This document shows positions 17,226 through 28,497 of a stretch of DNA of 64,000 bases, piece after piece (positions within the stretch are counted from its first letter, which is position 1; each line of letters opens with the position of its first letter). The stretch lies in the NCBI GenBank assembly GCA_047947115.1, contig CP170459.1, positions 1,696,001-1,760,000 on the forward strand. The letters run 5' to 3'. The DNA comes from Verrucomicrobiota bacterium. Lineage in GTDB: Bacteria > Verrucomicrobiota > Verrucomicrobiia > Limisphaerales > AAA164-E04. The notes under the pieces are model-generated. The model had not been told where the DNA came from and ran no database searches. It was given only the letters and a program-made list of their open reading frames with translations. A program made the translations under genes and the position numbers.

Positions 17226-17549
17226 ATGAAAGTTAAGACAGCCGATCTCAAAGCCAATTTGTCGAGCTATGTGCGTAAGGTTCGAGAAACAGGTGAACCA
17301 GTTGAAATCCTTCTGAGAGAAGAAGCAGTGGCTTACCTGACACCGGTTTGCGGAGAAAAAAAGCAGACTGTTCAGGAAATCCAGGATATGAAGGCATTGG
17401 AACGTGATTTAGCCGAGAATGGCCTCACCTGCCAAATGGCGCGTGCCGGTTCCAAACCTTCCGATTTTACGCCAGCTCCGGCAGTTGCGGGTGATGGTCA
17501 GGTAGATGTGATTACCGTCGAATCAATCCGCAGTGAAAAGGATTGGTAA
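17226..17549 (+). CDS. Phd/YefM-family antitoxin
   Basis: 'MKVKTADLKANLSSYVRKVRETGEPVEI...AVAYLTP'. Confidence 0.85.
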   Translation: MKVKTADLKANLSSYVRKVRETGEPVEILLREEAVAYLTPVCGEKKQTVQEIQDMKALERDLAENGLTCQMARAGSKPSDFTPAPAVAGDGQVDVITVESIRSEKDW

Positions 17550-17575
17550 TCGACGAGAATTTCTAGGGAGTTATT

Positions 17576-17974
17576 GTGGAACTTTTTTTTGATACATCCG
17601 CCATTGTACCGATCCTTCTCAAGGAACCTCATACAGAAAAAGCGATCAGCGCCTGGACTAAAGCGAAAAGAGTTTGGGCCTGGCGATGGCTGCAGGTTGA
17701 GGCAGAAGCGGCTTTGAGCCGACGGAAAGCACCTGCGCTTGCCTGGCAAAAATGGCATCAAATGAGTGCCGTTTTCGGATGGTTGGATATCGACGATAGG
17801 CAATACTCGCAATTAAGAGTCTTTAATCGGACCTTACGATTACGGGCAGCTGATGCCGGGCATCTCTACACATTTCACCTGGCAGTTCCCATTCTACCCG
17901 ATCTCAAGCTTGTCTGCTTTAATGAAGAAATCAATCGTGCAGCCGAAGTGCTCGGTTTGGATCGTTTTTCATAA
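17576..17974 (+). CDS. vapC: PIN-domain (VapC-like) toxin
   Basis: 'FFDTSAIVPILLKEP', 'VEAEAAL', 'LRAADAGHL'. Confidence 0.85.
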   Translation: MELFFDTSAIVPILLKEPHTEKAISAWTKAKRVWAWRWLQVEAEAALSRRKAPALAWQKWHQMSAVFGWLDIDDRQYSQLRVFNRTLRLRAADAGHLYTFHLAVPILPDLKLVCFNEEINRAAEVLGLDRFS

Positions 17975-18647
17975 GGCTGAGACAATTTACCTCAGAAGTC
18001 TGTTAGTTGCCCCACGACCCCGTTTTCACTGATTTTCGGCCAACTTTGCTCTAAAAAACCGGACCGGATACCTTGCCGAAGCGGACGCATCCAAACGGAT
18101 ATGCATCGAAGTCACACCACTTCGGAATTGCCGATACGTCGACCAAGGTCCTGCAGAAGTGGGGGCTGATTCCAATACAATTCCTCTTGGAACAAGGGAC
18201 CAATGGAATTCAAGAAAATCACCCGAGCGTTTTACTGGAGCATGATTTTCCCTGGTCCTTTTGGATTGACCCCAAAACTCACTAATTTACGAGGCAATCG
18301 GGGCTTGTTCTGCGGCTATAGTCAGTCACAAGGGTCTGGAAATCCGAGTTGGGCAATCAGCAATGGAAACCCTCATAGACTGAATCGGCGGCGATGGATG
18401 TACAAACGATTTTCTGGACCTGCGAATGCAGGAAGGGCTCAGGATAAGTTGGTTGAAGATCGAACAATCCCAGAGTCTAAAACCAGATGTGTGACTGGAT
18501 CAGACAAGCAATACGAAAATCAAGAAAGCGGCGAGCCTTGATAATCTGGGGGACATCCGGACAAATATAAACAAAGTAAAAAAAGTCGAAAAAAACGACT
18601 TGGGGTTGATATTTGTCTCTTGACCGAAAACTCTAATGTGTGACCTC

Positions 18648-19363
18648 AAAACTCTTGTTTTTGAAACAATTGAAAGAGAGGTTGGGGATTGGAACCGTTT
18701 CACAAATCGTCGTCAAATTGGCAGTTATACGGGGCTCTGTGGCGGTCTCAGTGCCAGTGGGCGCAGCAGTTGTCAGCTATCGATTACAAAGCACGGCAAC
18801 GTGCGATTACGAACTGCACTGGTCGAGATGGCCTGGCGATTATTGTTATGGCAAAAGGAATCTAAGCTAGTGAAGAAATGGCAATCGGTATTGGCAAATC
18901 CTCGAGCCAGCGGTGCCGCACGTAAAAAGGCCATTGTCGCCATGGCTCGACAACTGGCTGTGGACTTATGGAGATGGCAAACCGGACGAATAAGCCCAGA
19001 GGACTTGGGATGGGTAATGAAGGGGGGTTGAAGTCTCAGTCTCCCCTCATAGAACAACACTTTTAACCAGGATAAAGATGGACTGGAAAGATTTGAAACG
19101 GCACGTGCCCGGAACCCAGGCGGGGTCAGAAATGGTCCGATTATGAGATGGGGTACGTTCGTTTCTTGGCTGTGACCGTATGAGTCACGAGGTGCCGAAA
19201 TTAGTAATAAATCGTGCACGGATAGCAGGATGAGCAACGGCTAAGACCGTCGCCAGAGCCAGGAAAACGTTTTAGATTTTCCATATCCTTCGAGAAAGGA
19301 ACAAAAAGAAGAACCTGAAAAAAACAGAAAATGCACTTGGGTGCTTGACACTACTCATAGCAG
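18648..19363 (+). mobile_element. IS110-family element, 5'-truncated: C-terminal transposase domain (to 19031) plus ~330-nt non-coding right end
   Basis: 'EVGDWNRFTNRRQIGSYTGLC..LSASG...SITKHGNVRLRTALVEMAW...KAIVAMARQLA'. The end carries TTGACA (19345) and CATAGCAG. Confidence 0.85.
19040..19270 (+). ncRNA. Candidate IS110 bridge/seek RNA
   Basis: Long structured non-coding region after the transposase stop. Stems ttcttggct/agccaggaa, gtgac/gtcac and acgg/ccgt. Internal ATAGCAG is identical to the element end. Boundaries approximate. Confidence 0.55.
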
Positions 19364-19434
19364 CCTGAAGGGCTGGCTGTGTATGAAGGCAATTGCAACT
19401 TGCTCAGCGGCACACGTTCGTCCATCATCCGCTC

Positions 19435-19554
19435 ATGCTCAGAACCACCATTGCCCATTACAAAATCACCGGCAAGCTCGGGCAAGGCGGCATGGGAGAA
19501 GTGTGTCGGCCGACGAACGGCAAAATGGACCACTTGGCGGCGATCAAAGTAGTG
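19435..19554 (+). pseudogene. Ser/Thr protein kinase N-terminal fragment
   Basis: MLRTTIAHYKITGKLGQGGMGEVCR...AAIKV covers subdomains I-II only; homology then disappears. Confidence 0.75.
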
Positions 19555-19718
19555 GCTACGGTGGCTGTAAAAGGCAGGAGCGCCCCTCTCAAAATGGAAG
19601 TGCTGATAGGGGAATTCCTTTCACAGAACAAGAATAGGCGGGTCCTACATTTTTTTCAATTAAGGGAAAAAGTGCTTCGAAGTTGTGCCTTTTCATTTGA
19701 GTTCCAAAAAGAAGCTTT

Positions 19719-20372
19719 TTGATGATGCCAAAACGAAAATTGACAATAATGGTGTCTTCGACGGTTTATGGTATCGAAGAGTTGCTTGAACGTGTTTATG
19801 CGCTACTTACATCTTTCGGATACGAGGTTTGGATGTCGCATAAAGGCACAGTCCCGGTAATTTCGCCCATGACCGCTTTTGAGAACTGCCTCCGTGCAGT
19901 GGAAAAATGTGATCTGTTTCTTGGAATTATCACTCCTTCTTACGGGAGCGGTGAAGATCCACGTGATTCAACGGGTATGTCTATCACTCATCATGAAATC
20001 CGGAAGGCTATTGAGCTGGATAAGCCTCGCTGGCTATTGGCTCATGATCACGTTGTATTTGCCCGTACTTTACTCAAAAATCTTGGGTTTGGAGGTAAAA
20101 GCGGAAGAAAAAAACTGAAACTCAACAAGAATCAAGTTTTTACTGATCTGCGCATTTTGGATCTGTATGAAGATGCCACGATTGATCATGAAGAGCCTGC
20201 GTCCATTCCTTTGGCAGATCGGCGAGGCAATTGGGTCCAGAAATATCATTCCGATAACGATGGAGCCGTTTTTGTCATTGCGCAGTTTTTTCGTTACCAG
20301 GAAGTGGAGGAATTTATTCGAGAGCATTTCCAGAACGGCAACCCTCCTACATTAAACGGGGGTAGCAAATGA
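19719..20372 (+). CDS. DUF4062 domain protein (TIR/nucleoside-deoxyribosyltransferase-like)
   Basis: 'IMVSST', 'CLRAVEKCDLFLGII...YGS', 'SITHHEIRKAIELDKP'. Confidence 0.85.
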   Translation: MMMPKRKLTIMVSSTVYGIEELLERVYALLTSFGYEVWMSHKGTVPVISPMTAFENCLRAVEKCDLFLGIITPSYGSGEDPRDSTGMSITHHEIRKAIELDKPRWLLAHDHVVFARTLLKNLGFGGKSGRKKLKLNKNQVFTDLRILDLYEDATIDHEEPASIPLADRRGNWVQKYHSDNDGAVFVIAQFFRYQEVEEFIREHFQNGNPPTLNGGSK

Positions 20373-21811
20373 CTCAAAAACAAATCAGGGAACTGTTATT
20401 TCTCGGCGAAGGCCAACGTATAGAGTTCAAATCTTCCCCTCGAAACCCGGACGCGCTTGGCAAGACGGTGTGCGGTTTTTTGAACAGCTCCGGTGGCTTT
20501 TTGGTTTGCGGAGTCAGTGACAAGGGTGATTTGAAAGGCGTCGATACCTCTTCTGACGCCATCGGCCGACTTGAACATATTCTCAACGAGAAAATATCTC
20601 CGAAATCTTTGATCGCTGTCCAAGTGGAGCAAGTGGGGAAGTTTCCGGTAATCGTCATCGAAGTGCCGGCGGGAAATGATGTTCCTTATGCTTTTAAGGA
20701 TGTCATTTACATACGGTCCGGTGACCGGACCCAAAAAGCGGATGCGGAGACTATTCGCGATATAGTCCTGCGCCGCCAGATAGAGCCGGAACGGTGGGAA
20801 CGTCGTTTCTCCTTTGCCGATCTAGATGATGATGTAGATGAGGTTGAGGTGCTCGCAGCGGTATCCGACGCCGAAAAGGTGCGGCGGGCTTTTTTCCGTG
20901 ATGGAACCCAGTTATTGATGGTTCTCGAGGATTTTTCGGTCGCCCGTTACGGCCGTTTGACCAATGGTGGTGATGTTCTTTTTGCCAAGAATTCGGCGAT
21001 CCGTCTTCCGCAAATTCGCATCCGCGCCATGTGCTACAGTTCGGATAAAACAAGCGCTGAATTCAGAGATATGAAATCGTTTGAGGGTCCAGTCTGTCGC
21101 ATTTTTGAGGAAGCCTATTCCTTCATTGTTCGTAATACGCCTACGATTTCGCGATTCATCCCGGGCAGTCCCAAACGCCAAGATGCCTCTATATACCCGG
21201 AGGAAGCGGTCAGAGAAGCTCTGGTTAACGCGCTAGCACACCGTGATTACAGCGTCGCATCTGGTGGAATTGGCATCCACATATATCCTCGTCGGCTTGA
21301 GATTTGGAACTCTGGCGCCTTGCCTGCGGGTGTTACGGTGCCCAGCCTGCAGGCTGGGCAGATCTCCGTTCTGCGAAATCCTGATATTGCCCATGTGCTT
21401 TATTTGCGGGGACTCATGGAGAAGGCCGGTCGTGGCAGCGTGCTCATGGTTCGTAAATGCTTGGAAAACAAGATGCCTCCCCCGGTATGGAAATCAGATT
21501 CTCAGCTGGGAGTAACTGTAACATTCTTTACCCCGGAAGTCACCCCGGAAGTCACCCCGGAAGTCACCCCGGAAGTCACCCCGGAAGTTTTTAGGTTATT
21601 GCGGTGCATTCAGGGGGAAATGACTCGGCAGGCGTTGCAAGCGGAGATGAATCTCAAGGATGCAGAGCATTTCCGAAAGTCATTTCTATTGCCAGCGTTA
21701 GAATCGGGAGTTGTAGAAATGACAATCCCCCAAAAACCAAGAAGCAGCAAACAACGTTATCGACTTACTGCTAACGGCAAGCTGCTGACAAAGCGGCCAA
21801 AAGAAGAATGA
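20369..21811 (+). CDS. AlbA_2 (Schlafen-like) + HATPase_c_4 + C-terminal winged-helix protein
   Basis: 'GEGQRIEFKSS', 'CGFLNSSGG.LVCGV.D', 'YPEEAVREALVNALAHRDY', 'RNPDIA', 'EKAGRG', tail 'IPQKPRSSKQRYRLT'. Confidence 0.88.
   Translation: MTQKQIRELLFLGEGQRIEFKSSPRNPDALGKTVCGFLNSSGGFLVCGVSDKGDLKGVDTSSDAIGRLEHILNEKISPKSLIAVQVEQVGKFPVIVIEVPAGNDVPYAFKDVIYIRSGDRTQKADAETIRDIVLRRQIEPERWERRFSFADLDDDVDEVEVLAAVSDAEKVRRAFFRDGTQLLMVLEDFSVARYGRLTNGGDVLFAKNSAIRLPQIRIRAMCYSSDKTSAEFRDMKSFEGPVCRIFEEAYSFIVRNTPTISRFIPGSPKRQDASIYPEEAVREALVNALAHRDYSVASGGIGIHIYPRRLEIWNSGALPAGVTVPSLQAGQISVLRNPDIAHVLYLRGLMEKAGRGSVLMVRKCLENKMPPPVWKSDSQLGVTVTFFTPEVTPEVTPEVTPEVTPEVFRLLRCIQGEMTRQALQAEMNLKDAEHFRKSFLLPALESGVVEMTIPQKPRSSKQRYRLTANGKLLTKRPKEE
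21530..21589 (+). repeat. Coding 12-bp tandem repeat x5 (TPEV linker)
   Basis: accccggaagtc x4 plus accccggaagtt. Confidence 0.95.
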
Positions 21812-22116
21812 GAGCGCCATTCAATGGCCGCAGTTTGACGGTGAGTCTCCTGTTGCTAGTGGCAGGGGTGGGTGTCTGGATTCCATGGATAAAATATGGA
21901 TACTCACCTACTATGATTCACTTTGTTGGCATGCTGACCACTGGCTGCATCTATTTTGCTTTTTGGACTGTTGGTTTAGTAAGTCTGATTCGTGATTCTG
22001 ATCGTGGATATGTGGGCTGGAAGTTGCAGATTGCAAGCGTTGTTTACCTGTTAGCATTCATCGTTCCGGCTGGCATGATCATCATCATAGTGAGGGCAAT
22101 GTTGATGGGCATTTGA
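21808..22116 (+). CDS. Small membrane protein (about 3 TM helices)
   Basis: Three hydrophobic stretches. ATGA overlap with the upstream gene. Confidence 0.65.
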   Translation: MRAPFNGRSLTVSLLLLVAGVGVWIPWIKYGYSPTMIHFVGMLTTGCIYFAFWTVGLVSLIRDSDRGYVGWKLQIASVVYLLAFIVPAGMIIIIVRAMLMGI

Positions 22117-22280
22117 CCGTATTTGAGGTTCAAAAATTTGGCATTTATTTGGTTTCCTTGCCTGGAACTTCACTGGATTGCCCGGTATTGCAGATTCCAG
22201 AAGCATGGCTAATCCGTCACCTTAAACGCATCTAACAACCTGGTAAAAAGTGGGATAAATAGGCGAAAAACGGGAGGATT

Positions 22281-22328
22281 TGGTGGAGCCATGGTGAGTC
22301 GAACCCCAGACCTTCTCATTACGAATGG
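22281..22328 (-). other. Degenerate tRNA 3' half (att-site-like remnant)
   Basis: Minus strand CCATTCGTAATGAGAAGGTCTGGGGTTCGACTCACCATGGCTCCACCA has an anticodon arm, a GGTTCGA T-loop and a ...CCACCA end, but no 5' half. Confidence 0.75.
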
Positions 22329-22487: not shown

Positions 22488-25175
22488 GTGAATCAGATGA
22501 TGAACATTCAAATCCTCCCCTTGAGTGTGGCGCTCTTTATGGGGACGGTATGTTTTATTGCTGCCGAGGATAATGATCGTTTTGATCAACTCAAGTTGGA
22601 GGGAGCTCGGCGTTCAACGTTGGTGGATCAAAGCTTCAAATTGGAAGGGGATCTGGTTCCGAAACCTCAGTTAGATGCCTTTCGAGACGACATACTTCCG
22701 GTTCTGAATCAACATTGCGTTCCTTGTCATGGTCCCGACAAATCCAAGGGGCGGTTTCGAATCGATACTTTGGATCCGAATCTTCTGGAAGGGAATGATG
22801 TGGATTGGTGGCTGGATGTTCAGGCTGCATTGGCGAATGGTGAAATGCCGCCTCCCGAAGAGTCCGAATTGTCAGGGGAGGATCGAGGGAAGGTCATGGA
22901 ATGGTTTGCCAATGAAATCAGGACAGCTTCAGTCGTCCGAAGGGCCACCGGGGGCCATTCGTCATTTCGGCGCATGACGCGTTATGAATACAATTACGCC
23001 CTGCAGGATCTGCTGGGGTTGCCTTGGGAGTTTGCCAGGGATCTGCCGCCTGAGGCTCATTCTGAGGATGGATTCCAAAACAGTTCGGACATCCTTCATG
23101 TGTCCGTTGTTCAATTGGAAGCGTATCGACGACTGGCGAGGGAGGCTCTGATGCGCGCCACGGTTCATGGTTCGCAACCATCCGCACTTTACTGGGGTGT
23201 CTCCATGAAGGAGGCCAGTCGTGAGAAATGGGAGGAACAGGAAGCGAAACTCGAGAAGGTGCGATCTGATTTCAAGGATAATCCTGAACAGTTGAAGCTG
23301 GAGACCGAAAAACTGCTTAACGAATTCAAACGCCCTCATTGGGGTGCCTACTACAAAGATTTGACAACGGGTCGGATTGCACAGCATTCCTGGAATTATG
23401 GCGGAGCAAAATATGCGATTAAACCCTCGGATACGCGTGCAGATTTTCCCGATTCCTTTGAACACGTCGCGATTCTTCCTCCCGGGGTAAACCGAAGTCA
23501 AAAGTTGGTGGTGGAGTTGGGGAATCTATTGCCCGATGAAGGGATGATGCGTGTTCGGGTGCGGGCTTCGAGATCACCGAAGGACTTGAAGCGTGATCCG
23601 AGCATGCAGCTTGAATTCGGATGGCAGGCCAGCAATGAAGGGCGTGCGCTGATGAAGGTGAGTGAAGAGGACATTCTGGTGACCGCTTCACCGGAATCCC
23701 CTCAGATCTATCAATGGGACATTCCTCTCGGTGATATCTATCCGCGTAATTCAGTGCGCAAAACCTCGCCCATGGGTTCAATGCCCAGCCCCTCCGAGCA
23801 CATTCGTCTGGTCAATAGTTCGGTTTCAGAGGGGGAAATTCAATTGGATTATGTGGAGGTGATCGCCCCTGTTTACGATGAATGGCCACCCGCGTCGCAC
23901 AAACGCATTTTTTTCGATAGCCCGAACCGGGAAGATGAACCGGTGTATGCGAAAGAAATCCTGACCGCATTCATCCCGCGCGCCTGGCGTCGTCCTGTCA
24001 GTGGGGATGAGTTGGATCGTAAGCTACGGTTGTTCCACTCCATGCGGGATACATGTGAGACATTCGAGGAAGCGATGGTCGAAGTGTTGGCGACGGTTTT
24101 GGCTTCGCCCCATTTTCTGTATGTCGCCCGGGAGGAGGAGAGCGGGTTTGCCGATCAATCATCAGGTGTTCAGCCTTTGACCGACCATGAATTGGCCACT
24201 CGTTTGTCTTTGTTTTTATGGTGCAGTGTGCCCGATGAACGCTTGCTGAATCTGGCGGATCGCGGTGTGTTGCACCAACCTGAAATGTTGACCGGGGAGG
24301 TGCAACGGATGTTGAAGGATCCGCGTTCAAACCGCTTTGCCAAACATTTCGTGCGGCAGTGGCTCGATATGCAGCTGTTGGATTTTGTGAACCCCAAAAA
24401 TGGGATGGGAGACGAACTGAAGGAAGCCATGCATCAGGAACCGATTCTCTTTTTCCAGGAAGTGTTAAAGGGGAATGAGTCGATACTTCAATTCATTCAT
24501 GCCGACTATACCATGGTTAATGAGCGACTCGCTGGTCACTATGGATTGGTTGGTGTTTACGGGAATCATTTTCGACGTGTCGCGCTTGAACCTGCTCATC
24601 GGCGTGGCGGCTTGATGACTCAGGCTGGATTGCTGGCAATGAATGCAAGTGGCATGGATTCCAATCCTCTCAAGCGTGGGATTTGGATGTTGGAAAGCCT
24701 TCTCAATGATCCTCCGCCTCCGCCACCTCCGGCGGTTCCCCAGATTGATCTGGCGGATCCCGAAATTGCGAAGATGACCTTGAAGGAACGCATTGCGGAT
24801 CATCGTAACCATCCTGCCTGTATGTCCTGTCATTCGAAGATTGATCCCTGGGGAATTGCGTTCGAAAACTTTGATGCACTCGGTAAATGGCGTGAAGAAA
24901 TCAACGGGAAGCCCGTTGACGCCACCAGTCGTCTGTTCAATAATGAACGCTTGGATGGCATGGACGGGTTGAAACGCTTTTTGTTGGAACGCCGCCAAGA
25001 TCAGTTTGTACTCGCGGTGACGCACAAGATGTGTGTTTACGCGTTGGGACGTCCGCTGAGTTTCTCCGATCATTCCAGCGTGCAGGAGATAGCCTCCAAG
25101 GTGCGCCGGAAAGGGGATGGGTTGGCCACGCTGGTGCAGCAAGTGGTTGTGAGTTCTTTATTCTTATCAAAATGA
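22488..25175 (+). CDS. Planctomycete-type cytochrome c / DUF1587-DUF1592-DUF1595-DUF1588-DUF1585 protein
   Basis: CVPCH and CMSCH heme motifs, 'RRMTRYEYNYALQDL', 'RAWRRP', 'ELATRLSLFLW.S.PD', 'RGGLMTQA', 'PPPPPP', 'YALGR'. Confidence 0.92.
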   Translation: MNQMMNIQILPLSVALFMGTVCFIAAEDNDRFDQLKLEGARRSTLVDQSFKLEGDLVPKPQLDAFRDDILPVLNQHCVPCHGPDKSKGRFRIDTLDPNLLEGNDVDWWLDVQAALANGEMPPPEESELSGEDRGKVMEWFANEIRTASVVRRATGGHSSFRRMTRYEYNYALQDLLGLPWEFARDLPPEAHSEDGFQNSSDILHVSVVQLEAYRRLAREALMRATVHGSQPSALYWGVSMKEASREKWEEQEAKLEKVRSDFKDNPEQLKLETEKLLNEFKRPHWGAYYKDLTTGRIAQHSWNYGGAKYAIKPSDTRADFPDSFEHVAILPPGVNRSQKLVVELGNLLPDEGMMRVRVRASRSPKDLKRDPSMQLEFGWQASNEGRALMKVSEEDILVTASPESPQIYQWDIPLGDIYPRNSVRKTSPMGSMPSPSEHIRLVNSSVSEGEIQLDYVEVIAPVYDEWPPASHKRIFFDSPNREDEPVYAKEILTAFIPRAWRRPVSGDELDRKLRLFHSMRDTCETFEEAMVEVLATVLASPHFLYVAREEESGFADQSSGVQPLTDHELATRLSLFLWCSVPDERLLNLADRGVLHQPEMLTGEVQRMLKDPRSNRFAKHFVRQWLDMQLLDFVNPKNGMGDELKEAMHQEPILFFQEVLKGNESILQFIHADYTMVNERLAGHYGLVGVYGNHFRRVALEPAHRRGGLMTQAGLLAMNASGMDSNPLKRGIWMLESLLNDPPPPPPPAVPQIDLADPEIAKMTLKERIADHRNHPACMSCHSKIDPWGIAFENFDALGKWREEINGKPVDATSRLFNNERLDGMDGLKRFLLERRQDQFVLAVTHKMCVYALGRPLSFSDHSSVQEIASKVRRKGDGLATLVQQVVVSSLFLSK

Positions 25176-26590
25176 AACCGATGCAATACTTGAGTCTGAA
25201 ATCCCTGGACCGTCGACGTTTCCTTCGTGGAACGAGCTGGGCCCTGGCGCTGCCGTTTTTCGAATCCTTCGCCGGTTCATTGGCCAAAGGTGAAGGCACA
25301 GGGAATAAGCCCAGGCGCCTGGGATGTTTTTACTTCCCGGACGGAGTCCCCATGCCGCTGCCGGAAGATCCCGCCTATCAGGATTGGGCATGGTTTCCGC
25401 ACGGCAATGGGAGCGATTTTACCTTCACCAAATGCATGGAACCGCTTCAGTCCTTGCGGTCCGAATTGACGGTGATATCCGGCTTGTCACATCCCGCCGG
25501 TCGCAACGTGCATGGACACAACAATGCGGATCAATTCCTGACCGCCGCGGCCACCGGGACAGGGGACATGGATTATCAAAACACCATTTCTCTGGATCAA
25601 TTCTATGCAGACCATGTCGGTGATCAGACGCGGTTTGCTTCTCTGGTGATGTCCACCGATGGGGGGACTGGGACGGCTCGAGGGGCTCATACGATTTCGT
25701 TCAATCGGCAGGGGCGCGCCGTGCCGGCCGAGAATCGTCCCAAGCGTATTTTTGACATGCTGTTTGTCAAAGATGACACCGACGCAGCACGACGACTCGC
25801 CTTAAGTCAAAACGCGTTGGACGACCTGCTGGAGGACGCCCGTCAACTGCGCAGAAAGCTTTCGAAGCATGATCAGGGTAGTCTGGATGAATACCTGCAG
25901 TCTGTTCGTGAAGCTGAACTCAGAGTTCAAAAGGCAAAACAGTGGATCAACACGCCGCTTCCAACGGTCAATGTGGATCACATGAATCTGGAGATCTCAC
26001 CGGATCAGCCGCGTGAATATTTGCAGACCATGTTCGAACTGATCTTCCTGGCATTCAAAACGGATTCCACCCGTGTGGCGACGTATCAGATCGGGCGTGA
26101 GAACGGGGTGGGCATCAGTGATCATCTATCCCGTGCCATAGGTTTTCCGGCAGCGCACCAATTGTCGCATGAGACCAAGCAACCGGATGGATGGAAGAAT
26201 TTTGGAACCTATTGTCGTTTCCTGCATGAATTGTATGGACAGTTCATTACACGACTTCAACAAACCGCCGAGCCTGCCGGAGAAGGATCGATGCTGGACA
26301 ATACCCTGTTGCTTTTTGGATCCGCCTCCAGCGCGTTTCATTTGTCGCGCAACTATCCATTGATTCTGGCCGGCGGACGCAACATGGGCTTGGAACATGG
26401 GCGCTATCTCAACCACGCCGGTGCCGAAGCTTACCGTGGCGGTTGGAAACCGGGAGATCCTGAGCCCTGGACAAAGAAAGCAACTCAGGAGGATCGGCCA
26501 CTATCCAATCTATTCGTTTCCATGCTGCAGCGTCTAGGTGTCGAGTCGGATTCGTTTGCTGACAGCACCGGTAAACTGGATGCGGTTTGA
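25172..26590 (+). CDS. DUF1552 (HXXSHH-type) protein, Tat-like signal
   Basis: 'LDRRRFLRG..ALALPFFES', 'YFPDGV', 'LDEYL.SVRE.E', 'AFKTDSTRVAT', 'HQLSH', 'SMLDNT', 'FADSTG'. ATGA overlap with the upstream gene. Confidence 0.92.
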   Translation: MKPMQYLSLKSLDRRRFLRGTSWALALPFFESFAGSLAKGEGTGNKPRRLGCFYFPDGVPMPLPEDPAYQDWAWFPHGNGSDFTFTKCMEPLQSLRSELTVISGLSHPAGRNVHGHNNADQFLTAAATGTGDMDYQNTISLDQFYADHVGDQTRFASLVMSTDGGTGTARGAHTISFNRQGRAVPAENRPKRIFDMLFVKDDTDAARRLALSQNALDDLLEDARQLRRKLSKHDQGSLDEYLQSVREAELRVQKAKQWINTPLPTVNVDHMNLEISPDQPREYLQTMFELIFLAFKTDSTRVATYQIGRENGVGISDHLSRAIGFPAAHQLSHETKQPDGWKNFGTYCRFLHELYGQFITRLQQTAEPAGEGSMLDNTLLLFGSASSAFHLSRNYPLILAGGRNMGLEHGRYLNHAGAEAYRGGWKPGDPEPWTKKATQEDRPLSNLFVSMLQRLGVESDSFADSTGKLDAV

Positions 26591-26615
26591 GGGACGCCAA
26601 ATTTAGGAGTATTCA

Positions 26616-27683
26616 ATGGTGAGTACAAGTTTTTGTCAGCCACGGAAATCGGCCAACAAATCGCTTAACCGTATCCATTATGGGATCGTGCTGGTGGTAG
26701 TATGCTTTCTGCTGTCGGATTCGCGTGTGAGTGCCCAGCGGGGATCAAATCAAATCGGCGGCGTCCCATGTGAACACGTGCTCGCTCAAATGGGGGCAAA
26801 GATGGAATCGGGGCTTCAATACCTTGATCATTTGGACTATATACGGCATTTCGATCGAGTTGACACGAACCACGACGGGCGTCATTCACCAAAGGAGTAT
26901 ATCGACAACGGATTCCACATGAATGCCATGGCTCGTCGCGGCATTTTCAATGCCGCCGATGAAGACCGGGATGGATTCGTGTCCAGGGATGAATATGTGT
27001 TGAATCGCGTGATTACCGACGAGGCCAAGAGGATTGTTCAAGCCATGGATGAAGATCGGGACGGATTCATCAGTCAAAACGAATTCCTTTCACGTACCGA
27101 TTCGGTGTTGGGCGAGAGTTTGGCGAAGGAAGTATTCGATGCTTTCGACCTGAATGAAAATGGTTCCTTGATGATTCCCGAGTATTTGAGGGTGTGGGGC
27201 TTTTGGGCGCGCTCGGGAAAACCATCTGCCAAGCAACGATTGGGCGCATTGCGCGAAGCGGAACTGGATGACTATTGGGCCGAGGTTTCAAGATCGGTAA
27301 AAGAGGGCGATTTCGAGGGGTATGCCGCGACATGTCATCCCGAGGGTGTGTTGGTCTCTGGCAGTTCCCAATCCAGCTATCCATTGAGCCGAGCCTTGGC
27401 ACGGTGGAAACAAGGAATTCTGGACACCAAGTCAGGTAAGATGAAAGCGTCCGTTGAGTTCCGGTTCAGCCATCGTGTTGGGGATGTGACCACGGCTCAC
27501 GAGACCGGGATTTTTCGATATGCATCCGAAGTCGACGGGGCAAAGTCGGTGGCCTTTATTCACTTTGAAGCCTTGTTGACGAGGGGGCAGGATCGCTGGT
27601 TGATCTTGATGGAGAATCAGAAGGCCCCAGCTTCTGAAGATGACTGGAAGGCGCTGGGACCCTTTGATCAAGCCGAACGTTGA
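26616..27683 (+). CDS. EF-hand repeat protein fused to a SnoaL/NTF2-like domain
   Basis: Four DxN/DxDG loops (DTNHDG, DEDRDG x2, DLNENG). C-terminal 'YWAEVSRSVKEGDFEGYAATCHPEGVLV...HETGIF...FEALL'. Confidence 0.75.
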   Translation: MVSTSFCQPRKSANKSLNRIHYGIVLVVVCFLLSDSRVSAQRGSNQIGGVPCEHVLAQMGAKMESGLQYLDHLDYIRHFDRVDTNHDGRHSPKEYIDNGFHMNAMARRGIFNAADEDRDGFVSRDEYVLNRVITDEAKRIVQAMDEDRDGFISQNEFLSRTDSVLGESLAKEVFDAFDLNENGSLMIPEYLRVWGFWARSGKPSAKQRLGALREAELDDYWAEVSRSVKEGDFEGYAATCHPEGVLVSGSSQSSYPLSRALARWKQGILDTKSGKMKASVEFRFSHRVGDVTTAHETGIFRYASEVDGAKSVAFIHFEALLTRGQDRWLILMENQKAPASEDDWKALGPFDQAER

Positions 27684-27723
27684 ACATGACTCCTCATAAA
27701 ACTGCCAAGCTTTTGTCCTTTCA

Positions 27724-28497
27724 ATGATTTTCGAGTTTTTCAAACGGCGTCGCAGGAGGAAAATCCTTTCCAAGCCCTTCCCTGAATCTCAGCTCAAGAT
27801 TTTGGAAGGTCAGTTTCCGTTGTATCAAAAGCTGCCCGCCGACGCCCAGACCAGGTTGAAGGATTTGGTTCAGGTATTTCTTGCTGAAAAAAATTTTGAA
27901 GGATGCCGTGGGTTTGAGCTTTCGGAGGAAGTTCCGGTTCTGATTGCTGCGCAGGCTTGCTTGCTTTTGATTGGGAATCCTGATCGTGAGTATTCCAAGT
28001 TGAAATCCATTCTGGTTTATCCACGCTCCTATGCGGCTGCGTCGGAACAGATTTCTGAAGGAGGCATTGTGACGGTATCCAATCATGAGGTGCTCGGGCA
28101 ATCCTGGGAGCAGGGACTTGTCTCGCTTTCCTGGGAATCCACAAAGCATGGGGCTGCCAACATGCATGATGGACGTAACGTCGTGATTCATGAGTTTGCC
28201 CATCAACTGGATCAGGAGGATGGTATTGCAAATGGACTGCCGGTATTGCGTTCGCGTTGCAGGTATGCCGCCTGGAAATCAGTTCTTAGTGAGGAATACG
28301 AACGGTTACAGGATCGTGTGGAGAAGGGGCGAAAAGCCATCATGGACGTATATGGCGCAACGCATCCGGCAGAGTTCTTCGCTGTGGCTTCGGAATGCTT
28401 TTTTGAAAAATCCAAACAGCTGAAACATCATCGGCCAGAACTTTATCGGGAACTTCAAATATTCTACGGTCAAGATCCGGTGGAGTATCACAGGTAG
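27724..28497 (+). CDS. mtfA: M90 zinc-dependent peptidase (MtfA family)
   Basis: 'IAAQACL', 'ILVYP', 'DGRNVVIHEFAHQLD', 'YGATHPAEFFAVASECFFE'. Confidence 0.92.
   Translation: MIFEFFKRRRRRKILSKPFPESQLKILEGQFPLYQKLPADAQTRLKDLVQVFLAEKNFEGCRGFELSEEVPVLIAAQACLLLIGNPDREYSKLKSILVYPRSYAAASEQISEGGIVTVSNHEVLGQSWEQGLVSLSWESTKHGAANMHDGRNVVIHEFAHQLDQEDGIANGLPVLRSRCRYAAWKSVLSEEYERLQDRVEKGRKAIMDVYGATHPAEFFAVASECFFEKSKQLKHHRPELYRELQIFYGQDPVEYHR

What the first reader, a model, noticed from the sequence alone, without database searches (positions are those of the whole stretch)
18648..19375. IS110 remnant retaining a candidate bridge RNA in its right end, with a visible donor-guide match and a palindromic target
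Seen: ~330 nt of non-coding DNA follows the transposase stop and contains nested stems (ttcttggct/agccaggaa, gtgac/gtcac, acgg/ccgt). An internal ATAGCAG (19222-19228) is identical to the terminal ATAGCAG (19357-19363), which follows an outward TTGACA (19345). The flank reads cagcc-tgaag-ggctg, a REP-like hairpin. Known: IS110/IS1111 recombinases use bridge/seek RNAs from their non-coding ends, form a promoter at the circle junction, and some (IS621) target REPs. Inference: this is the guide RNA of a PVC IS110 subgroup, and it could still act in trans although the DEDD domain is deleted here.
Basis: partly seen in the sequence, partly recalled or inferred. Interest (0 to 1): 0.72.

Follow-up and report, generated by a model that had tools for sequence, protein, structure and literature searches.

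The report
Orphan bridge RNA aimed at tRNA-fMet
This is the dead right half of an IS110-family jumping gene whose predicted guide RNA is still intact and, judged from many relatives, likely steered it into a duplicated piece of the initiator-tRNA gene; the mechanism is a known one and the tRNA-type target is the only unusual part.

Summary
Confirmed: a 5'-truncated IS110-family element with IS1111-type layout. Homologues fix the right end at ...CATAGC plus an AG core (19362-63). The non-coding end holds a conserved, covarying 185-nt structure (19091-19275; 14 of 40 pairs compensatory in 23 sequences). New here: the target loop (CAGGC 19117-21, TTATGAG 19141-47) covaries with insertion sites across the family (0 of 5000 shuffles on either side) and predicts TTATG-AG-CCTG. 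Two same-genus genomes carry a tRNA-fMet 3' copy (likely an island att site) reading TTATGAG-CC at or near the syntenic spot. So this copy's target is likely that att remnant, not a REP hairpin; relatives do hit REP-like and attC-like repeats, and 0 of 50 rebuilt sites are tRNA. Action in trans is unsupported: no DEDD domain, no other IS110 and no second RNA copy in the single-contig genome. A second, unrelated orphan IS110 right end abuts it on the left. Known mechanism, new subfamily member; tRNA-att targeting rests on one insertion event.

The parts
18660..19031 (+). 3' third of an IS110-family recombinase gene (Tnp domain with the GG-S-SG serine loop); DEDD domain and left end deleted. Left boundary uncertain, 18654-18662
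   Evidence: PF02371; 74-77% identical to residues ~237-365 of full-length 365-385 aa homologues; an RNA-run contig continues upstream of 18662 into intact transposase sequence
19091..19275 (+). Predicted bridge/seek RNA: target domain (stem 19097-19110/19151-19163) and multiloop donor domain (stem 19164-19170/19258-19264)
   Evidence: RNAalifold and pair counts on 23 sequences; model R1; coordinates
19112..19122 (+). Right target guide (top-strand complement); CAGGC 19117-19121 is the reverse complement of G-CCTG at the right junction
   Evidence: column test 85 of 95 positions match in 19 relatives vs 57.0 shuffled
19123..19138 (+). Hairpin separating the two target guides
   Evidence: 3 of 6 pairs compensatory
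19139..19147 (+). Left target guide GATTATGAG including core AG; predicts left target TTATG
   Evidence: column test 53 of 75 in 15 relatives vs 36.7 shuffled; G007 uninterrupted site reads GGTTATGAG
19184..19187 (+).
   Evidence: GTCA in 17 of 21 ATGAC-type and 7 of 8 ATGGC-type elements, GCCT in 11 of 11 AAGGC-type; a clade-level change
19222..19228 (+). Left donor guide ATAGCAG, equal to the element terminus plus core
   Evidence: both copies read ATAGTAG in L030 and ATAGGAG in L153, L154, L155
19345..19350 (+). Outward -35-like hexamer TTGACA (half of a possible circle-junction promoter)
   Evidence: sequence; recurs at relatives' ends; a matching -10 in the left end is weak, untested
19350..19358 (+). 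Right sub-terminal inverted repeat ACTACTCAT, followed by the 3-bp terminal extension AGC (19359-19361)
   Evidence: pairs 9 of 9 with left-end ATGAGTAGT in L031, L032; across 50 loci mean perfect run 5.4, mean 7.8 of 10
19362..19363 (+). Core dinucleotide AG
   Evidence: multi-copy elements diverge outside AG at both ends
19364..19368 (+). Right half of target, CCTGA: inferred end of a tRNA-fMet 3' duplicate (anticodon stem, minus strand)
   Evidence: same letters end the tRNA-fMet copy in G001 (TTATGAG CCTGAA); G007 homologous site 75.6% over 193 nt from 19362
18305..18645 (+). Second, unrelated orphan IS110-family right end (internal GATGTGTGAC 18486, TTGACC 18620, terminal AATGTGTGACC 18635); abuts the remnant
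   Evidence: 72% over 205 nt to the non-coding end behind an intact PF01548+PF02371 gene in G770; no trace of that protein in own genome

Best explanation
This is the leftover right half of an IS110-family insertion sequence with IS1111-type layout, whose right end encodes a predicted bridge RNA that likely guided insertion into a duplicated 3' piece of the initiator tRNA-Met gene, and which is now likely inert. How it works (shown by covariation among relatives): a ~185-nt RNA has a 5' target domain with the top-strand complement first, then a hairpin, then the bottom-strand match ending in the AG core; its 3' multiloop carries the donor guides ATAGCAG and probably GTCA. Inferred from IS621/IS1111 work: the intact ~1.48-kb element circularises to the junction CATAGC-AG-ATGAC, the recombinase binds the RNA and recombines that junction with the target at AG, without a target duplication. 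Inferred for this copy: the guide reads TTATG-AG-CCTG, the minus strand of the tRNA-fMet anticodon arm, and the site hit was an att-like duplicate at an island edge, not the single working tRNA gene. The left target half, left end and DEDD part were later lost; a second orphan IS110 right end now abuts the break.
For: Ends and core from five multi-copy groups. Guide-target covariation: mean longest match 5.40 vs 3.54 (left, n=35) and 5.63 vs 3.75 (right, n=49), 0 of 5000 shuffles each; column test 85 of 95 and 53 of 75 (0 and 1 of 10000). Donor guide follows terminus in 4 loci. Structure: 98.2% of cells paired, 14 of 40 pairs compensatory, slid controls 35-46%. Guide order as described for IS1111 seekRNAs (PMC11187229). 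Target: G007 has a tRNA-fMet 3' copy ending TTATGAG-CC joined without gaps to the homologue of 19362-19554, then about 2.9 kb on the same tRNA-Ala island end as window 22132-22325; G001 has a tRNA-fMet copy ending TTATGAG-CCTGAA 1.3 kb before the 86%-identical orthologue of 22654-28490. All 3 of 3 TTATGAGCCTG sites in the own genome are tRNA-fMet or its copies. Inert.
Against: One insertion event only, and its left junction is gone, so the target is read from two kin genomes that are not independent. The right guide matches just 4 of the first 6 flank bases (relatives 3-6) and has G where relatives have T opposite the core A. Population alleles carry other right guides (GTCCAGCT in runs X1 and X5, another in X3), and two metagenome copies have flank TCAG. 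The count of 3 TTATGAGCCTG sites equals the 2.8 expected by chance. No other element with this guide was found and 0 of 50 rebuilt sites of relatives are tRNA. The RNA is predicted, not observed: RNA-run contigs are sparse, unstranded and not confined to it.
Confidence: 0.75

Rival explanations
1. Bridge RNA as described, but the lineage's usual target is some other repeat sharing TTATG-AG-C (for example with right half CTGGAC), and the tRNA-fMet duplicate was an opportunistic near-match.
For: A different right guide allele (GTCCAGCT) sits on the same remnant in runs X1 and X5; relatives favour REP-like and attC-like repeats; one relative, L038, sits in a site its guide does not match.
Against: Left guide matches the syntenic tRNA copy at 5 of 5 bases next to the core (about 1 in 1000 by chance); read by eye, both right-guide alleles match the tRNA's CCTGAC at 4 of 6 positions, as if decayed from a full match; TTATGAGCTGG occurs once in the genome.
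Confidence: 0.15
2. One reading: the target is a REP-like hairpin cagcc-tgaag-ggctg.
For: The hairpin is in the sequence; many relatives insert at the base of REP-like hairpins (TTGG-AG-TGCGG).
Against: The exact 15-mer occurs once in 6.08 Mb; CAG of its 5' arm is element end and core; it is broken in L102/L109 and absent at the G007 site; the left guide points to TTATG.
Confidence: 0.04
3. The orphan RNA is kept because it is used: in trans by an incoming intact recombinase, as a non-autonomous unit, or as a decoy bound by the truncated Tnp domain.
For: Scores 171 bits on the family model (it is a training sequence; near-identical copies 163 bits); alleles show a compensatory stem change (19106-7 with 19155); the 131-codon frame is open; the remnant is held at half its words or more by 11 of 24 listed runs; an untruncated relative occurs in run X15; stand-alone ssr9 units exist for ISPpu9 (PMC12288879).
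Against: No recombinase in the genome; no left end, so it cannot form the donor junction; no promoter-like site; in L109 the RNA (185 of 187) is no more conserved than the left flank (557 of 558) or gene remnant (374 of 376); truncated IS110 recombinases showed no activity in 10.64898/2026.08.14.744561.
Confidence: 0.06

Closest known systems
IS1111-group seek/bridge RNA elements ISEc11, ISKpn4, ISPst6, ISPa11 (PMC11187229; PMC11208160)
   Same: Long non-coding region downstream of the gene, short left end, sub-terminal inverted repeats 7 bp and 3 bp from the ends, top-strand target complement 5' of the bottom-strand match, donor guides in a multiloop; relatives target attC-like and REP-like repeats as ISKpn4 and ISPa11 do.
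   Different: Repeats are short (perfect run 3-9 bp, against 'usually 11-13' in PMC11187229 and 7-17 in PMC11208160); protein 365-385 aa against 330-350 given for IS1111; full-length P0001 scores under the cut-offs of NF033542 (130 of 140) and PF01548 (23 of 29); this copy's inferred target is a tRNA duplicate.
IS621 bridge recombinase (IS110 group; PMC11208160)
   Same: Two-domain RNA with separate target and donor guides around a 2-bp core; variable target loop, conserved donor loop.
   Different: RNA lies in the right end, not the left; guide order reversed; core AG not CT; no solved-structure match by sequence.
ISCARN28-like branch (row in the supplement of PMC11208160)
   Same: By eye, similar RuvC motifs (G.DVH..., C.EAGP.G..., ..D..DA).
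   Different: Not tested by alignment or tree; its ends and RNA were not seen (supplement file 2 unreadable).
ISPpu9 / ssr9 (MITEPpu9) (PMC12288879)
   Same: IS110-family element with AG core and recombinase-less RNA units elsewhere in the genome.
   Different: ssr9 units keep both ends and an intact ISPpu9 is in the same cell; here the left end and any partner enzyme are missing.

Membership tests
IS110 family (bridge recombinases) | C-terminal Tnp domain (PF02371) with the SG motif | tested here: met
   (48 bits, cut-off 21); GGLSASG in remnant, G271/S273/G276 invariant
IS110 family (bridge recombinases) | N-terminal DEDD RuvC-like domain in this copy | tested here: not met
   deleted in the window; homologues keep D30, E76, D113, D116 and hit PF01548 weakly, below cut-off. 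Lowers 'active element', not ancestry
IS110 family (bridge recombinases) | Structured non-coding RNA whose loops covary with the target | tested here: met
IS110 family (bridge recombinases) | Donor guides matching the end junction | tested here: met
   left donor guide covaries in 4 loci; right donor guide only at clade level
IS110 family (bridge recombinases) | Short shared core, no longer target duplication | tested here: met
   AG at both ends in multi-copy groups
IS110 family (bridge recombinases) | RNA is expressed and binds the recombinase; circular intermediate forms | not testable with these tools
   RNA-run contigs inconclusive; no joints seen
IS1111 group | Long non-coding region downstream, short left end | tested here: met
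   right end 332 nt here, 196-461 nt in relatives; left end about 55 nt before the start codon in the close group
IS1111 group | Sub-terminal inverted repeats at 7 bp/3 bp offsets, 7-17 bp long | tested here: inconclusive
   offsets fit; perfect run 9 bp in 8 of 50 loci, mean 5.4, mean 7.8 of 10 matches: short end of the range
IS1111 group | Top-strand complement precedes bottom-strand match | tested here: met
   against PMC11187229 section 9
IS1111 group | Transposase falls in the IS1111 clade | not tested
   no named reference proteins in hand; nearest annotated plasmid hits 29-35% identical, labelled only 'IS110 family'
IS1111 group | Junction promoter (-35 from right end, -10 from left end) | tested here: inconclusive
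   TTGAC recurs (my end-finding pattern required it, so the count is circular; L153 and L155 lack it); the hexamer 17 bp on in relatives' junctions matches TATAAT at about 3 of 6, read by eye
REP-targeting IS110 (IS621, ISPa11, ISPpu9 type) | Insertion in a multicopy REP repeat | tested here: not met
   flank 15-mer unique in genome, hairpin not conserved; met for several relatives

The most novel reading that the evidence does not exclude
A natural bridge RNA programmed against the initiator-tRNA anticodon arm: an IS110-family lineage that parasitises the att sites which integrative islands duplicate at tRNA-fMet, the tRNA counterpart of the IS1111-attC group, surviving only in duplicates because the single tRNA-fMet gene is essential.
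Probability: 0.4. Interest if true: 0.62.

Novelty: new member of a known kind. Interest (0 to 1): 0.42.

Why it matters
The mechanism is published (bridge/seek RNA in IS1111-type right ends), so the remnant alone is ordinary. What the work adds: a fully annotated, compact subfamily (AG core, ~185-nt RNA, four guide segments located, model R1) that has been naturally reprogrammed many times, to REP-like, attC-like and, once, a likely tRNA-fMet att site. If tRNA-att targeting recurs, it is a target class I did not find described for IS110/IS1111 and would let an IS block or ride island excision. It also shows that a guide can be used to read back a deleted insertion site.

Tried and rejected
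Intact copy or partner enzyme in own genome: none (genome 95.8% complete, one contig; the RNA search scored 150 of 1278 candidates). Rfam: 0 matches at E<=1. PDB by sequence: 0 with profile A1, 2 chance hits with P0001. More elements with the same left guide: metagenome pattern scan gave 16 stretches, 2 are the same remnant, 14 have no transposase match; viral contigs 0; none among fetched loci. tRNA targets among relatives: 0 of 50 by BLAST; two low-threshold ARAGORN calls (L051, L093) lacked BLAST support and were dropped. Expanded element with a distant left end: no left-end motif near the locus; one unrelated hit genome-wide. Expression: contigs of 4 RNA runs cover scattered parts at low depth with no strand; no conclusion, and gaps mean nothing. 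L157's right end was a pattern artefact: it stayed in the right-side shuffle and was left out (repeat table). My first idea that the left neighbour was an IS4 or island end was dropped. Earlier findings of this scan: nothing in 3 look-ups. Structure prediction was not run.

Full report
Observation. The ORF 18636-19031 matches PF02371 only and is 74-77% identical to the last ~125 residues of 365-385 aa proteins, so the DEDD domain and left end are gone. Taken alone the features are weak (fold z -0.77 for the whole end; -2.4 for the core; p about 0.02 for a repeated 7-mer; no Rfam match), so I tested them on relatives.

Relatives and ends. A scan of GTDB contigs gave 60 loci, most titled Verrucomicrobiota; protein searches matched 9 of 401 phylum genomes and 56 of 401 order genomes. 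Of 103 loci examined, 7 were duplicates; of the 96 kept, 79 had the internal GGATAGnAG, 71 a recognisable right end and 62 a left end (both end patterns were mine and the right one required TTGAC). Multi-copy groups diverge just outside an AG at both ends: left AG-ATGACATG (or AAGGCATG, ATGGCATG), right CATAGC-AG. Close relatives are about 1.48 kb. In the window the element ends at 19361 with core AG 19362-63. A short inverted repeat starts 7 bp from the left (counting the core) and 3 bp from the right, the offsets given for IS1111 in PMC11187229; it is 9 bp perfect in 8 of 50 loci, mean run 5.4.

The RNA. Twenty-three distinct close sequences align over 19091-19275. Five helices hold 98.2% of cells paired, 14 of 40 pairs with compensatory change, 0 of 500 shuffles as high, slid controls 35-46% (kinship inflates the shuffle test, and the structure came from this alignment). 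A model built from the alignment hits 26 of 29 sources searched, down to 41% protein identity, and not the 31%-identical plasmid relative L190 or the two non-family loci L002 and L010.

Guides. In the 5' domain two variable segments flank a hairpin. The first is the reverse complement of the right target, the second equals the left target plus AG. Alignment-free test, one locus per distinct loop, window excluded: left 5.40 vs 3.54 (n=35), right 5.63 vs 3.75 (n=49), 0 of 5000 shuffles each. Column test in the close group: right 85 of 95 bases (19 loci, null 57.0), left 53 of 75 (15 loci, null 36.7). This order is the one described for IS1111 seekRNAs (PMC11187229). GTCA at 19184 is the likely right donor guide: GTCA in 17 of 21 ATGAC-type and 7 of 8 ATGGC-type elements, GCCT in 11 of 11 AAGGC-type ones, which is one clade-level change. 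A multiloop donor domain is noted for many IS1111 orthologues in PMC11208160.

Target of this copy. The guides (CAGGC 19117-21; GATTATGAG 19139-47) predict TTATG-AG-CCTG. The observed right flank is CCTGAAG. In same-genus G007 an uninterrupted homologue aligns without gaps from 19362 (75.6% over 193 nt) and is preceded by a 50-nt tRNA-fMet 3' copy ending GGTTATGAG; 2.9 kb on lies the same tRNA-Ala island end as window 22132-22325. In G001 a tRNA-fMet copy ending TTATGAG-CCTGAA lies 1.3 kb before the orthologue of 22654-28490. The own genome has one full match to this tRNA and three derived copies elsewhere; all 3 TTATGAGCCTG sites are these, though 2.8 are expected by chance. That such 3' duplicates are att sites left by integrating islands is established knowledge (recalled; tRNA preference of islands also in PMC5001619), not tested here. 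Against: one event, missing left junction, kin genomes, a 4-of-6 right match, other right-guide alleles in runs X1, X3, X5 and flank TCAG in L102/L109. The REP reading fails for this copy (unique 15-mer, overlaps the element end, not conserved), but relatives do sit in REP-like (TTGG-AG-TGCGG) and attC-like (CCTAAC...AG-CTGAGCC) repeats, labels given by eye; 0 of 50 rebuilt sites are tRNA.

Could it act in trans? The genome (one contig, 95.8% complete) has no PF01548 match, one PF02371 match and one RNA-model match, all this locus, no left end and no sigma70-like site in 18400-19500. Near-identical remnants with the same truncation occur in other samples; in L109 the RNA is no better conserved than its left neighbours (185 of 187 vs 557 of 558 and 374 of 376), while identity falls to 84-86% from 19276 on, which suggests recombination among alleles. 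One RNA-run contig runs on into intact transposase sequence upstream of 18662, so an untruncated relative exists in nature. RNA contigs show neither strand nor level. I judge the remnant inert.

Left neighbour. 18305-18645 is the right end of a second, unrelated IS110-family element: 72% over 205 nt to the end behind an intact PF01548+PF02371 gene in G770, with internal GATGTGTGAC and terminal AATGTGTGAC sharing a T where three relatives have G in both; its recombinase has no match in the genome. The ATG at 18636 belongs to it. How the two ends came to abut is not resolved.

Known versus new. Works like an IS1111-type bridge/seek element (high confidence); membership of the IS1111 clade by protein tree was not tested, and repeat length and protein size are atypical. 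Papers: PMC11208160, passages, section 12 and a supplement search (file 2 unreadable, file 3 cut; no GGATAGCAGG hit); PMC11187229, passages and sections 6 and 9; PMC12288879, 10.64898/2026.08.14.744561, 10.64898/2026.10.21.760802, PMC5001619 and PMC13604230, passages only. Seven searches listed no paper whose title or abstract start describes an IS110/IS1111 element targeting a tRNA or tRNA-derived att site; large bridge-RNA surveys may hold this subfamily in supplements I could not see (bioRxiv supplements closed).

Verdict. Real feature, known mechanism, new subfamily member; interest 0.42. The tRNA-att specialist reading has probability about 0.4 and would merit about 0.62.

Noticed in passing
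window 18305-18645: Second orphan IS110-family right end with its own candidate bridge RNA and no recombinase, directly upstream of the finding; two unrelated guide-RNA modules in tandem. A 13-bp near-direct repeat GACC(C/T)CAAAACTC lies at about 18269 and 18642.
   Followed up: partly
G000 C1:3010973-3011049 and 3052607-3052681; G001 C42:679-913 (L166): tRNA-fMet pseudo-copies in which the 3' anticodon stem is replaced by a hairpin (TCCCGC-GACT-GCGGGA), in tandem next to the real gene; origin unexplained. They match the window's left guide at 9 of 9.
   Followed up: no
L041-L056, L061, L072-L074: A sub-branch (55-62% identical protein) inserts at CCTAAC-N5-6-AG-CTGAGCC in attC-like cassette repeats of Verrucomicrobiota, apparently a separate attC-targeting lineage.
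   Followed up: partly
window 17226-17974: Phd/YefM antitoxin plus PIN toxin pair, left of the two orphan ends.
   Followed up: no
window 19393-22325: Cassette after the insertion: Ser/Thr kinase N-terminal fragment (by homology to G007), DUF4062 gene, AlbA_2/HATPase_c_4/Fic-like_C gene, then a tRNA-Ala 3' fragment at 22281-22325: a variable island edge; downstream genes differ in L102.
   Followed up: partly
L003/L131 (G025): Family member with an internal deletion that removes the first half of the donor domain of the RNA while keeping the target loop.
   Followed up: no
L038: Element whose flanks do not match its own target guides (off-target insertion or rearrangement).
   Followed up: no
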